DNA of 64,000 nt from a bacterium. Its GTDB lineage: Bacteria > Patescibacteriota > Minisyncoccia > Phycocordibacterales > UBA2100. The position numbers were made by a program, and so were the translations under genes. This document shows, piece after piece, positions 7,598-9,459 of the stretch; the stretch's first letter is position 1; every line of letters starts with the position of its first letter. Location of the stretch: positions 168,092-232,091 of the forward strand of contig JAYPJF010000001.1 of assembly GCA_038128225.1 (NCBI GenBank). The letters are read 5' to 3'. Below the pieces are notes generated by a model, which made no database searches, was not told the origin of the DNA, and saw nothing but the letters and a program-made list of their open reading frames with translations.

Positions 7598-7614
7598 GGT
7601 TTCTGTACAATCAA

Positions 7615-7639
7615 AAGACCGCCTCTGGGCGGTTTTTTG
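7615..7639 (+). terminator. Rho-independent terminator after hup (gaccgcc-tctg-ggcggt + TTTTTT)
   Basis: Stem plus T-run seen in the sequence. Confidence 0.65.
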
Positions 7640-7762
7640 ATGCGCGGCTATATGTGCACGCCGCTTGCTAGCTATAAGTTATTCCAAGGTGCTACCATAG
7701 ACATAGTTGCAAAGGGCAATTACTAGGCTGTCTTCCCAAGAGAAGACAGACAATGTATCACT

Positions 7763-7861
7763 ATGGATAACCAAGAATGCGTGTGCCAGGGTGCAGCCCA
7801 GTGTCCAGAAAATTGCACCTGTGATTGTCATAAGGGCGCAGAAAGCGAAACAAGTGCATAG
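7763..7861 (+). CDS. Putative 32-aa cysteine-rich micro-protein (MDNQECVCQGAAQCPENCTCDCHKGAESETSA), metallothionein-like
   Basis: Six Cys plus one His in 32 aa. A strong hairpin at 7872..7904 follows the stop immediately. The ORF is below the track size cutoff and was found by reading the sequence. Confidence 0.3.
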   Translation: MDNQECVCQGAAQCPENCTCDCHKGAESETSA

Positions 7862-7871
7862 CTTCAACAAC

Positions 7872-7904
7872 AAACACAAACCGCCTTTGAGGCGGTTTGT
7901 GTTT
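7872..7904 (+). terminator. Strong hairpin (aaacacaaaccgcc-tttga-ggcggtttgtgttt), a probable intrinsic terminator for the micro-ORF
   Basis: Perfect 14-bp stem ending in a T-rich 3' arm. Confidence 0.45.
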
Positions 7905-8078
7905 GGGAGAACTGCGCAGTAAAAGGTACGGCGCCCGTCCATTCATATATATCCGTTGTTTTGTGCAGAATACTAGAAATAGCTCTAATTCCCCACTGCG
8001 CCGACACGATCAAATTATTCTTTGCCGAACTAATCCAAGGGTTCGCGAAATGAGTGTAACTTTGTTCGTTGAATTGCA

Positions 8079-8110
8079 AAAGAAAAGCCGCTCCCGTTGC
8101 CAGGAGCGGC
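8079..8110 (-). terminator. Terminator hairpin (gccgctcc...ggagcggc) with a T-run on the minus strand, downstream of the 8122..8832 gene
   Basis: Stem seen in the sequence. On the minus strand it is followed by TTTTCTTTT. Confidence 0.5.
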
Positions 8111-8121
8111 CAGTTTAGCGA

Positions 8122-8832
8122 TTAGGCTTGGTGCGGCCAGTGCTCCGTCCCATCGGAGTCAATCCAGTGATATGACTCCGGGTCGTCCGGCGACCCGCAG
8201 GTCACGGTGGCATACCTGCCGCCGTGCTCTGCGGCGAGAAAAATCTTCGTCGCTGCGGCGCGAGCTGCCTTCTCCTGCGGAACACGGAAGCGGAAGGACC
8301 GATTCTTTTCGCCGTTCCGCCCCGAATGGGCGAAAAGGACGAGGTCACTGACATCAGCGCCTTCCTTCGTATCCCACTCGGCATGAAAGTACGCGGCATC
8401 CGCCACCATCTCCTGTTTTTCCGCGAGAAGGTTGTTGACGGCGCGGCTGGCCACCTCGCAGTCAACCTCCTCCCAAAGTTCTTCCCACAAGGTGGACATC
8501 ACTTCGGGAGAGTCCTGGTAGGTCCGGTTGTGCACACGCCGTTCGACGAAGTTGCCGCGCTTGACGAGCACGGCGATCGTCACAGCTTCCAGAAGTGGCA
8601 GTGGGATACAGAGCGAGCTTTCACCTGCCCGCACCACCACCAGGTCGAAATAAGACTCAGACGAGGAGCCCCCATCCGGGTCCTGTGTTTCGATCTCGAC
8701 CTCAAGCCCCTCAGGCTTGTTGTCGAGATACTCCTGAAGCACCACCGCGAGCGCGGTGTTGGCGAGAGAGTAGTCCCCGCCGCTGACCTGCTTTGCGCGG
8801 TTGCCGATCTGGACAATTTTGTGTAGGTTCAT
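8122..8832 (-). CDS. Hypothetical protein of 236 aa. The gene is GC-rich (about 60% against a background of about 48%) and is likely horizontally acquired.
   Basis: Intact ORF with a strong GGAGGAGGG Shine-Dalgarno site, its own consensus promoter and its own terminator. I do not recognise a family for it. Confidence 0.55.
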   Translation of the reverse strand: MNLHKIVQIGNRAKQVSGGDYSLANTALAVVLQEYLDNKPEGLEVEIETQDPDGGSSSESYFDLVVVRAGESSLCIPLPLLEAVTIAVLVKRGNFVERRVHNRTYQDSPEVMSTLWEELWEEVDCEVASRAVNNLLAEKQEMVADAAYFHAEWDTKEGADVSDLVLFAHSGRNGEKNRSFRFRVPQEKAARAAATKIFLAAEHGGRYATVTCGSPDDPESYHWIDSDGTEHWPHQA

Positions 8833-9006
8833 ATCGCCCTCCTCCGGGCTGGTTCCGCACTTGGCGAAGCCGTGAGTTCCACATCAGTTCTCTCTAATGT
8901 GGGGAAGGCCGCATCGTTGCGGCTCCAGCTTTGGCACTAGCGAAGTACCGCCGAAACTGGAGCCGCAGAGAATCTTAATCTCAAAAATCTTCTCTAATCT
9001 GATTGT

Positions 9007-9035
9007 AATATACAATGTTCTATGTTTATTGTCAA
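9007..9035 (-). promoter_or_regulatory. Near-consensus sigma70 promoter (TTGACA-17-TATATT) driving the 8122..8832 gene through a leader of about 170 nt
   Basis: Read on the minus strand: TTGACAataaacatagaacattgTATATT. Confidence 0.45.
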
Positions 9036-9165
9036 TATAAAACTGCGGACTAAACCAAAGGTGTTATAAAATCTTGAGTATCGCATGCCCAAACGTTCTT
9101 TTTTCCCAAAAGATTTAGAGTGCGCGCAGGACAGCGGCGAGCGCCCATTTACAAATCCTTGATTG

Positions 9166-9184
9166 GTGCGGGATGCGGGAATCG
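9166..9184 (-). repeat. 19-nt direct repeat of the tRNA-Gly 3' end (gtgcgggatgcgggaatcg), att-like
   Basis: Identical to 9312..9330 inside tRNA-Gly. No complete tRNA can be folded around this copy. Confidence 0.5.
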
Positions 9185-9312
9185 GTCACGAGTTTCGCTC
9201 TGCGAACCCTCGACCCCGCCTCAGCCCGGCTCGGGCTTCCGGCTTTCGATTCCCACCCTCCGTTACAAAACAACAGTCATCGTACGCTCACGCGTACTCT
9301 TCGTTTGTTTTG

Positions 9313-9383
9313 TGCGGGATGCGGGAATCGAACCCGCGACCTCAGTTTGGAAAACTGATATTTTACCATTAAACTAATCCCGC
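9313..9383 (-). tRNA. tRNA-Gly (anticodon TCC)
   Basis: Reverse complement reads GCGGGATTAGTTTAATGGTAAAATATCAGTTTTCCAAACTGAGGTCGCGGGTTCGATTCCCGCATCCCGCA. It folds as a cloverleaf with anticodon loop TTTCCAA and no encoded CCA. Confidence 0.75.
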
Positions 9384-9459
9384 ATAGGTTTGCACATACT
9401 ACCAAAATACTCCCAAACACAAAGCCCCGCTTTAGCGGGGCTTTGTTCAGTCCACTTCT

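What the first reader, a model, noticed from the sequence alone, without database searches (positions are those of the whole stretch)
8833..9035. GC-rich orphan gene driven by a consensus promoter through a highly structured leader of about 170 nt
A TTGACA-17-TATATT promoter on the minus strand sits about 170 nt upstream of the 8122..8832 start codon. The leader contains a 10-bp perfect inverted repeat (gcggctccag...ctggagccgc, 8919..8966) enclosing smaller hairpins, and ends in an unusually strong GGAGGAGGG Shine-Dalgarno site. Most genes in this window have weak or absent Shine-Dalgarno sites. The arrangement suggests a cis-regulatory RNA (riboswitch, thermosensor or attenuator) controlling an acquired gene of unknown function.
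Basis: partly seen in the sequence, partly recalled or inferred. Interest (0 to 1): 0.5.

Follow-up and report, generated by a model that had tools for sequence, protein, structure and literature searches.

The report
Acquired gene cassette with structured leader
A foreign-looking gene in a tiny groundwater-type bacterium carries its own strong promoter, a long folded leader that hides its ribosome-binding site, and its own terminator; the gene belongs to an unnamed protein family, and the leader shows no sign of being a riboswitch.

Summary
The sequence observation holds. A TTGACA-17-TATATT promoter (9035..9007, minus strand) lies 174 nt upstream of the ATG at 8832. The leader contains a 20-bp hairpin (8918..8967, -34.8 kcal/mol, z -7). 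A GGAGGAGGG Shine-Dalgarno (SD) site sits 5 nt before the ATG, in a Parcubacteria/Kaiserbacteria-like genome whose own genes lack SD sites. The ORF is GC-rich (GC3 0.74 against 0.46 for host genes).

Three corrections:
- The gene is not an orphan. Exhaustive HMMER finds 123 cluster representatives sharing its N-terminal ~140-aa domain. That domain has no Pfam, PDB or fold match and is partly linked to Patescibacteria.
- The gene lies in a ~1.5 kb insertion between HU and tRNA-Gly(TCC). In relatives these two genes are 66-283 bp apart.
- The leader is not conserved. The closest homologue (58% identity) keeps the identical SD but has a ~55-nt leader. Three others have 35-65 nt. One (44% identity) has an unrelated 152-nt leader that also masks its SD.

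No Rfam match, terminator, leader peptide or thermal melting was found. The best reading is an autonomous, acquired, moron-like cassette whose leader structure stabilises the mRNA and damps translation.

In passing, I found an apparently undescribed Y-shaped structured element (9166..9261) that ends in an exact copy of the neighbouring tRNA's 3' end.

The parts
9007..9035 (-). Sigma-70-type promoter, TTGACA-17-TATATT. The inferred transcription start is near 9000.
   Evidence: 11/12 matches. (the only match of 11/12 or better in the window, though chance expectation is ~1). Homologues carry TTGACC-16-TATACT, TTGACT-17-TATTGT, TTGACT-17-TATAAT, TTGATT-17-TATAGT and TTGACA-17-TATTAT.
8969..9000 (-). 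AT-rich 5' segment of the leader (GC 0.24 together with the promoter). It has only a weak AGAGAA/UUCUCU hairpin.
   Evidence: (z +1.1, not significant).
8918..8967 (-). Long hairpin P1, about 20 bp. No U-tract follows it.
   Evidence: I8; -34.8 kcal/mol, z -6.96. Absent from the closest homologue.
8833..8917 (-). SD-masking domain. The anti-SD CCUUCCCC (8908..8901) pairs with the SD GGAGGAGGG (8845..8837) and encloses two small hairpins.
   Evidence: -31.9 kcal/mol, z -2.8. (SD unpaired probability 0.14 at 10-55 C; 17% of shuffled leaders do as well).
8122..8832 (-). ORF of 236 aa, acidic (pI 4.8). Residues 1-140 form a conserved domain of an unnamed family. Residues 141-236 are a lineage-specific C-terminal part, predicted beta-rich with low confidence.
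   Evidence: family; near-invariant K14 N25 E48 T49 D51 G54 Y62 D63 C75 P77 P79 K91 H101 R103. (pLDDT >90 for residues 1-140). (GC3 0.75 and 0.73 in the two parts). (no known family or fold).
8076..8111 (-). Intrinsic terminator: 11-bp stem with 8 GC pairs, then UUUUCUUUUG.
8000..8085 (-). Non-coding stretch downstream of the terminator. It resembles the stretch downstream of the closest homologue's terminator and may be part of the transferred unit.
   Evidence: local score 31 against 18.5 +/- 2.3 in shuffles; 1 of 300 reach it.
7634..9158 (-). Segment present here but absent between HU and the tRNA-Gly(TCC)/Y-element unit in relatives. This is the insertion that carries the cassette.
   Evidence: HU-to-tRNA distance is 1714 bp here. 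It is 66 bp in L002, 200 bp in L011 and 283 bp in L013.

Best explanation
The locus is a self-contained, horizontally acquired single-gene expression cassette in a Parcubacteria/Kaiserbacteria-like (Candidate Phyla Radiation, CPR) genome. It consists of its own near-consensus promoter, a ~168-nt 5' UTR, a strong SD, a 236-aa protein from an uncharacterised and partly Patescibacteria-linked family, and its own intrinsic terminator. It sits in the variable gap between HU and tRNA-Gly(TCC).

Shown:
- the parts and their coordinates
- the foreign composition
- the insertion relative to syntenic relatives
- membership of the protein family
- that promoter, SD and terminator recur around homologues, whereas this leader does not

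Inferred: the leader is a lineage-specific structured UTR, not a ligand or temperature sensor. The 20-bp hairpin near the 5' end most likely protects the transcript from 5'-end-dependent decay, or is a processing site. The CCUUCCCC:GGAGGAGGG helix keeps the very strong SD mostly closed. Translation of a constitutively and strongly transcribed foreign gene is therefore damped, in a host that otherwise initiates without SD sites.
For: - Anatomy.
- Foreign origin: GC 0.60 against 0.48 and GC3 0.74 against 0.46. It is the only SD-led gene among about 50.
- Insertion: the trigger factor-ClpP-RNase Y-HU-tRNA-Gly(TCC)-protease synteny is conserved in L002, L011, L013 and L015, with HU and the tRNA 66-283 bp apart where the site is unoccupied. 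Other cargo sits at this locus in L013/L014 (a reverse transcriptase) and L015 (a 386-aa gene).
- Real gene and family: 123 representatives at E<=1e-3 and 34 at E<=1e-10; the alignment; a confident model of the N-terminal domain.
- Cassette character of the family: each homologue is a lone gene with a near-consensus promoter, a hairpin-containing leader and a terminator. L023 has the identical AGGAGGAGGGC SD.
- SD masking recurs in L150, where the SD unpaired probability is 0.003.
- No sensor signature.
Against: - There are no expression data. The transcription start is inferred from one promoter match, which occurs at about chance frequency per window.
- SD masking is not statistically unusual here, since 17% of shuffled leaders do as well.
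- The stabiliser and damping roles are inferred only from anatomy.
- No integrase, att site or other transfer mechanism for the cassette was identified. The tRNA 3'-end repeat next to it belongs to a separate conserved element.
- The donor is unknown.
- A lineage-specific riboregulator cannot be excluded when no diverged copy of this leader exists.
Confidence: 0.55

Rival explanations
1. The leader is a true cis-regulatory sensor (riboswitch, RNA thermometer or protein-binding switch) that unmasks the SD on a signal.
For: - The leader is significantly structured (z -4.5; 85-nt SD domain z -2.8).
- The SD is paired.
- A second family member, L150, independently has a 152-nt leader with an almost fully masked SD.
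Against: - No Rfam match at E<=10.
- No melting between 10 and 55 C.
- The masking is not beyond shuffled controls (17%).
- The leader is absent from the closest homologue and from three others.
- The leader sequences of the window and L150 are not alignable (87 of 500 shuffles score as high).
- There is no multi-helix junction with conserved unpaired nucleotides of the kind that marks aptamers.
Confidence: 0.12
2. The 50-nt palindrome acts at the DNA level, or is a small inserted palindromic element (an operator, a recombination site or a remnant of one), and landed in a formerly short leader. Its RNA fold is incidental.
For: - The closest homologue has the same SD and a similar promoter but lacks exactly this GC-rich middle part.
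- The hairpin is near-perfect, which is typical of DNA palindromes.
- The GC-rich block begins abruptly at 8968, after a promoter region of 24% GC.
Against: - No second copy of the palindrome occurs in the window.
- The arm pattern gave only unrelated hits in metagenome contigs.
- No recombinase is nearby.
- The GC content of the leader block equals that of the ORF, which fits co-transfer with the gene rather than a later insertion.
Confidence: 0.2
3. The leader and protein form a two-part RNA-protein module, for example a toxin or defence gene kept silent by its own 5' RNA, or an RNA partner processed from the UTR.
For: - The gene sits in a variable locus that holds a reverse-transcriptase insertion in a relative.
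- It combines a strong promoter with a masked SD, as in translationally inert toxin mRNAs (established knowledge of type I toxin-antitoxin systems; a resemblance only).
- SD masking recurs in L150.
Against: - There are no PADLOC, PHROG, Pfam or NCBIfam matches for the protein or the family.
- No antisense promoter lies in the leader.
- The protein is a 26-kDa acidic soluble protein, not a small membrane toxin.
- Most homologues have short plain leaders.
Confidence: 0.06

Closest known systems
Morons (autonomous promoter-gene-terminator units with deviant base composition, inserted between genes of lambdoid prophages; from established phage genomics, recalled from memory)
   Same: One gene with its own sigma-70 promoter and its own intrinsic terminator. 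Its composition differs clearly from that of its neighbours, and it is inserted between two genes that are adjacent in relatives.
   Different: The cassette sits in a bacterial chromosome next to a tRNA, not inside a recognisable prophage. No phage genes flank it, and neither the protein nor the DNA matches any phage or plasmid record.
Translationally masked 5' UTRs (RNA thermometers of the ROSE/fourU type; SD-sequestering riboswitch expression platforms)
   Same: An upstream pyrimidine tract (CCUUCCCC) pairs with the SD within a folded domain directly before the start codon.
   Different: There is no aptamer-like conserved junction and no Rfam hit. The helix is too stable to melt at 10-55 C in silico. 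It is not conserved among homologues, and the degree of masking is within the range of shuffled controls.
5'-terminal stabiliser stem-loops of bacterial mRNAs (e.g. the ompA and ermC/aprE leaders; recalled from memory)
   Same: A very stable hairpin in the first third of a long leader. Every homologue also has a hairpin shortly after the inferred start.
   Different: Here the hairpin begins about 34 nt from the inferred 5' end, whereas classic stabilisers sit within a few nucleotides of it. No half-life data exist.
tRNA-gene-targeted genomic islands (tyrosine-integrase elements flanked by a direct repeat of the tRNA 3' end)
   Same: Foreign DNA lies directly downstream of a tRNA gene. A 19-nt exact repeat of the tRNA 3' end (9166-9184) stands between the tRNA and the cassette.
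   Different: The repeat is the 3' strand of a conserved structured element. That element is also present after the same tRNA in relatives that have no cassette (L011, L013), and after other tRNAs elsewhere. No integrase lies in the insert, and the cassette lies outside the pair of repeats.

Membership tests
Any Rfam cis-regulatory family (riboswitches, leaders, thermometers) | Covariance-model score at or near the family's gathering threshold | tested here: not met
   (gathering threshold: only 4 tRNAs in the window). (E<=10 over 8000-9450: the best hits in the leader are mir-56 at 21 bits against 80 and AAC_AAD_leader at 15.8 bits against 56, both at chance level).
RNA thermometer | SD/AUG pairing that opens within the physiological temperature range | tested here: not met
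   SD unpaired probability is 0.14-0.16 from 10 to 55 C. This is an in-silico result only.
Transcription attenuator / leader-peptide operon leader | A terminator hairpin with a U-tract inside the leader, an alternative antiterminator, and a short translated leader ORF | tested here: not met
   One search finds no terminator-like site on the minus strand between 9000 and 8833. The hairpin is followed by AACGAUGCGG. The only ORFs in the leader start inside the promoter or overlap the main start without an SD.
Conserved cis-regulatory leader of this gene family | The same leader, with covariation, in front of homologous genes | tested here: not met
   Leaders of L023 (55 nt), L017 (35), L026 (65), L027 (41) and L150 (152) are not alignable with the window leader, apart from the SD in L023.
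Uncharacterised protein family found here (N-terminal ~140-aa domain) | A significant profile or sequence match over the whole domain, with the near-invariant residues present | tested here: met
   (E 2e-36 to 1e-3 for 122 other representatives, covering residues 1-140). (15 invariant or near-invariant positions, all present in the window protein). (profile score 175 bits).
Moron-like autonomous cassette | Own promoter, own terminator and deviant composition, inserted between genes that are adjacent in relatives | tested here: met
   Promoter and terminator are predicted, not measured.
Moron-like autonomous cassette | Location within a prophage | tested here: not met
   The flanks are HU, RNase Y, ClpP, a tRNA and a protease. 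No phage matches.
tRNA-targeted integrative island | The island is bounded by a direct repeat of the tRNA 3' end and encodes, or lies next to, an integrase | tested here: not met
   The cassette lies outside the DR1-DR2 pair. DR2 belongs to the conserved Y element. There is no integrase ORF in 7598-9311. A decayed third copy at 7956-7978 leaves a small doubt (D1).
Integron cassette | An attC site with R''/R' GTTRRRY boxes and a nearby intI | tested here: not met
   The sequence shows no GTTRRRY at the palindrome borders. No integrase gene is adjacent.
Known anti-phage defence proteins | A match to a PADLOC model | tested here: not met

The most novel reading that the evidence does not exclude
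The family consists of mobile, promoter-bearing single-gene cassettes of CPR bacteria, whose SD-led members are kept translationally closed by fast-evolving 5' structures. The window and L150 would be independent solutions of this kind, opened only by a trans-acting trigger such as a phage-encoded or stress-induced RNase, helicase or RNA. This would make it a new kind of translationally armed accessory or defence module in organisms that otherwise do not use SD sites.
Probability: 0.08. Interest if true: 0.6.

Novelty: new member of a known kind. Interest (0 to 1): 0.3.

Why it matters
On its own the finding is modest. It is a clean example of how a foreign gene arrives in a streamlined CPR genome with all its expression signals attached. 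These include an SD site, which the host's own genes do not use.

Two by-products matter more:
- The supposed orphan defines a well-conserved domain family with no Pfam, PDB or fold match. The family has at least 120 clusters at 50% identity and a confidently predicted structure. Its members recur as stand-alone cassettes in Patescibacteria.
- The tRNA 3'-end repeat beside the cassette could be mistaken for an integration scar. It is instead part of a covarying Y-shaped element that copies the 3' end of whichever tRNA precedes it. That element appears to be undescribed and deserves its own study.

Tried and rejected
- **Word-indexed homology searches.** The search with the protein found only the protein itself. 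Peptide-pattern scans of genome, metagenome and viral contigs found nothing. Only the exhaustive phmmer search succeeded.
- **Family libraries.** Pfam, PHROGs, PADLOC, NCBIfam and PDB sequence searches gave nothing.
- **Mobile-element records.** blastn and tblastn against phage and plasmid records gave nothing.
- **Related loci from alignments.** The profile search with A1 in the word-indexed database returned only 5 proteins.
- **Palindrome arm scan.** I spent the last metagenome scan on GCGGCTCCAG-N(10-40)-CTGGAGCCGC. The 120 hits are unrelated GC-rich hairpins. That pattern was a poor choice.
- **First hypothesis, now rejected.** I first read the 19-nt tRNA 3'-end repeat as the att scar of the cassette. 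I rejected this once the same repeat, embedded in a conserved structure, turned up in relatives without the cassette.
- **Second Y element.** I tested whether a second one flanks the cassette or its homologues. It does not.
- **Phage origin of the Y element.** I tested this with a 15-mer scan of viral contigs. It gave 34 chance hits, none confirmed by the covariance model.
- **Shared motif.** A TAGTYCNG..AAAG motif seen in the window, L023 and L017 flanks was too weak to use.
- **Literature.** Searches gave nothing specific.

Full report
**1. What is in the sequence**

On the minus strand the window reads as follows.
- TTGACA (9035..9030), a 17-nt spacer, then TATATT (9012..9007).
- An AT-rich stretch.
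- The palindrome GCGGCUCCAG...CUGGAGCCGC (8966..8919).
- A further 85 nt ending in GGAGGAGGG (8845..8837).
- The ATG at 8832, followed by a 236-codon ORF ending at 8122.
- A good intrinsic terminator (8111..8086, 11-bp stem, then a U-run).

The promoter is the only match of 11/12 or better in the whole window. Shuffled windows give about one such match, so the hexamers alone prove nothing.

The palindrome is far beyond chance. As RNA it is a single ~20-bp hairpin of -34.8 kcal/mol, z -7. The interior extends the same stem and does not hold separate hairpins.

The remaining 85 nt fold at -31.9 kcal/mol (z -2.8), with CCUUCCCC (8908..8901) paired to the SD. The whole leader folds at -71.3 kcal/mol, z -4.5.

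The ORF and the structured part of the leader are 60-61% GC. The surroundings are about 48%, and the promoter with the first 35 nt of the leader is 24%.

**2. The host and why the gene looks foreign**

The flanking genes are trigger factor, ClpP, RNase Y, HU, tRNA-Gly(TCC), a trypsin-like protease, CorA and ATCase. The nearest genomes identify a Parcubacteria/Kaiserbacteria-like CPR bacterium. The closest relatives share only ~50% identity in the protease.

None of 50 host gene starts has an SD. About half have a TAnnnT box within 20 nt of the start codon, which suggests leaderless or very short-leader mRNAs. The ORF at 8832 is the only gene start with a strong, correctly spaced SD.

Its GC3 is 0.74 (0.75 and 0.73 in the two halves) against 0.46 for host genes. 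This also shows that the frame is coding throughout.

**3. It lies in an insertion**

The RNase Y-HU-tRNA-Gly(TCC)-protease order is conserved in four relatives.
- HU and the tRNA are 66 bp apart in L002.
- They are 200 bp apart in L011, a complete Kaiserbacteria genome (CP066682).
- They are 283 bp apart in L013.
- They are 1714 bp apart here.

The locus is variable. L013/L014 carry a reverse-transcriptase gene plus small ORFs on the other side of the tRNA. L015 has an inverted tRNA followed by a 386-aa gene. The 'acquired' reading is therefore supported. No integrase lies in the insert.

**4. The gene is not an orphan**

Word-indexed and peptide-pattern searches found only the identical protein in one Logan assembly. 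The exhaustive phmmer search over 1.84 billion cluster representatives found 123 proteins at E<=1e-3 and 34 at E<=1e-10. All but one cover residues ~1-140. The exception, P0124, matches residues 129-188 and is described in section 8.

The alignment shows a compact domain with invariant or near-invariant K14, N25, E48, T49, D51, G54, Y62, D63, C75, P77, P79, K91, H101, R103 and L115. With this alignment AlphaFold models residues 1-140 at pLDDT >90. The C-terminal 95 residues stay uncertain.

No Pfam, NCBIfam, PHROG, PADLOC or PDB sequence match exists. There is also no structural match:
- Foldseek against PDB, best E 0.017.
- BFVD, nothing.

One homologue is annotated from a Patescibacteria MAG. 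Another comes from the 0.2-um fraction of Hainich groundwater. Others lie among typical CPR genes such as Mur ligases, MurB and PGI. The protein's function remains unknown.

**5.

| Locus | Homologue (identity) | Promoter | Distance from -10 end to start codon | SD | Leader structure |
|---|---|---|---|---|---|
| L023 | P0122 (58%) | TTGACC-16-TATACT | 55 nt | AGGAGGAGGGC, identical | One small hairpin; no counterpart of the long hairpin or anti-SD domain |
| L017 | P0131 | TTGACT-17-TATTGT | 35 nt | none | Small hairpin |
| L026 | P0183 | TTGACT-17-TATAAT | 65 nt | none | Small hairpin |
| L027 | P0129 | TTGATT-17-TATAGT | 41 nt | GGAGGG | Small hairpin |
| L150 | P0126 (44%) | TTGACA-17-TATTAT | 152 nt | GGGAG | Structured (z -4.1); SD paired to CUUCC near the 5' end, unpaired probability 0.003 |

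These data come (L023; L017, L026, L027; L150). The L150 leader sequence is not significantly similar to the window leader (87 of 500 shuffles score as high).

What recurs in the family is a near-consensus promoter, a hairpin-bearing leader and a terminator. In the SD-using members, a strong SD also recurs, masked in two of the three. This particular leader does not recur.

Only near-identical strain copies of this leader exist. They carry one SNP, inside the ORF, so covariation cannot be assessed.

**6. Sensor signatures are absent**

- No Rfam family matches, even at E<=10.
- No U-tract follows the hairpin, and no terminator-like site or credible leader peptide lies in the leader.
- The predicted SD pairing does not melt between 10 and 55 C (unpaired 0.14-0.16). 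Seventeen percent of shuffled leaders mask the SD as well.

The riboswitch, thermosensor and attenuator readings are therefore not supported, though a lineage-specific regulator cannot be excluded.

**7. Most likely mechanism**

Shown: an autonomous promoter-UTR-gene-terminator unit of foreign composition, inserted in a variable intergenic site. It is a moron-like cassette in architecture, although not inside a prophage.

Inferred: transcription from the strong promoter starts near 9000. The very stable P1 hairpin in the first third of the UTR acts as a stabiliser or processing site. The anti-SD helix keeps an exceptionally strong SD mostly closed, which damps translation of a foreign gene. 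Confidence in the cassette reading is high, and the specific RNA roles are only moderately likely (0.55 for the whole explanation).

The main rival is that the 50-nt palindrome is a DNA-level site or an inserted element. This fits its absence from the closest homologue. Against it, there is no second copy in the window, and the leader block has the same GC content as the ORF.

About 85 nt downstream of the terminator resembles the corresponding stretch in L023 (score 31 against 18.5 +/- 2.3). The transferred unit may therefore extend past the terminator.

**8. Noticed outside the finding**

The last 19 nt of tRNA-Gly(TCC) are repeated exactly 146 nt downstream (9166-9184). I first took this for the att scar of the cassette. 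It is not.

The repeat is the 3' strand of the closing helix of a ~96-nt Y-shaped element (9166..9261, minus strand). The element has the following layout:
- A 5' strand GGGAAUCG.
- An AAAG linker.
- An arm closed by GCC/GGC.
- A second arm.
- GUGAC, followed by the tRNA 3' copy.

The same architecture follows tRNA-Gly(TCC) in L011 and L013, tRNA-Pro in L002 and tRNA-Arg in L015. In each case the element ends in an exact copy of that genome's own tRNA 3' end, and the 5' strand covaries with it.

Evidence that it is a real structured family:
- All five fold alone into the same three-way junction, with z from -3.8 to -5.6.
- A covariance model built from the four non-window copies finds the window copy at 57 bits, E 4e-12.
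- 97% of cells pair, and 13 of 23 pairs show double changes. No shuffle out of 500 reaches this, and the slid controls collapse. With five sequences and a model-fitted alignment, this is suggestive rather than final.
- Rfam has no match in the three copies scanned: the window, L013 and L002.
- A motif scan of viral contigs gave only chance hits.

Its function is open. It could be a tRNA-end mimic or partner RNA, or the product of a DNA-level duplication. In L015 the copy runs 8 nt into the tRNA flank.

Other loose ends:
- Logan contigs from several samples end exactly at the two tRNA-end copies.
- There is a decayed third copy at 7956-7978.
- L017 carries an eight-copy, promoter-bearing intergenic repeat between single-gene units.
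- One phmmer hit, P0124, matches the window protein's C-terminal region (residues 129-188) in 11 stretches. It is a 2462-aa eukaryotic (Anaeramoeba) protein, at 26% identity. I did not examine whether this is real homology or compositional.

**9. Verdict**

'Acquired' is supported. 'Orphan' is wrong, and 'riboswitch, thermosensor or attenuator' is not supported. The finding is a new member of a known kind, an acquired autonomous cassette with a structured, SD-masking UTR, and is of modest interest. The unnamed protein family and especially the tRNA-linked Y element are the more promising leads.

Noticed in passing
window 9166-9261 (-); also L011 4707-4830 (-), L013 1036-1172 (-), L002 12778-12891 (-), L015 9971-10079 (+): A Y-shaped (three-way junction) structured element lies directly downstream of tRNA genes in Parcubacteria. 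The 3' strand of its closing helix is an exact 19-26-nt copy of the preceding tRNA's 3' end (Gly, Pro or Arg), and the 5' strand covaries with it. A covariance model built without the window copy finds it at E 4e-12. 13 of 23 pairs show compensatory changes. No Rfam match in the three copies scanned (window, L013, L002)..
   Followed up: partly
window, all gene starts (e.g. 7325, 12010, 41157, 48542): Host genes have no Shine-Dalgarno sites. About half have a TAnnnT box within 20 nt of the start codon, which suggests widespread leaderless or very short-leader mRNAs.
   Followed up: partly
L013 1308-4322 / L014; L015 3252-4547: The HU / tRNA-Gly(TCC) / protease locus is a variable spot in relatives. 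One lineage has a 332-aa reverse transcriptase (RVT_1) with three small ORFs, co-oriented with the tRNA. Another has an inverted tRNA followed by a 386-aa beta-helix-like gene.
   Followed up: no
window 9308, 9166, 9195 (ends of L003-L007 and L001): Logan contigs from 4-5 independent samples are ~100% identical to the window. They end exactly at the two copies of the tRNA 3' end, although the shared repeat (19 nt) is shorter than the assembler's k of 31. This may reflect population heterogeneity there.
   Followed up: partly
window 7956-7978: A decayed third copy of the tRNA-Gly 3' end plus its flank: GCACAAAACAA is exact, the upstream part is ~50% identical, and the mismatches are mostly C-to-T. 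It may be an old boundary of the insertion (D1).
   Followed up: no
window 8000-8085 (-) and L023 718-800: The non-coding stretch after the terminator is significantly similar between the window and the closest homologue's contig (score 31 against 18.5 +/- 2.3; 1 of 300 shuffles), although the proteins are 58% identical and differ at their C-termini.
   Followed up: partly
L017 3813-12513: Eight copies of a 35-134-nt intergenic repeat (TTTTACCCCACCAAAACCTCCAAC...), which includes a TTGACT promoter, separate successive single genes. One of those genes is the family member P0131. The arrangement looks like an array of promoter-bearing cassettes.
   Followed up: no
window 7871-7905: A perfect 16-bp hairpin (CAAACACAAACCGCCT / AGGCGGTTTGTGTTTG) lies in the ~490-nt non-coding stretch between the cassette terminator and HU. 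It is crossed by doubtful 61-87-aa ORFs.
   Followed up: no
window 8122-8409 (aa 141-236 of the ORF): The C-terminal third of the protein is absent from the family's other members. Its only hit is a repeat in a 2462-aa Anaeramoeba protein (11 stretches, 26% identity). It is predicted beta-rich at low confidence.
   Followed up: no
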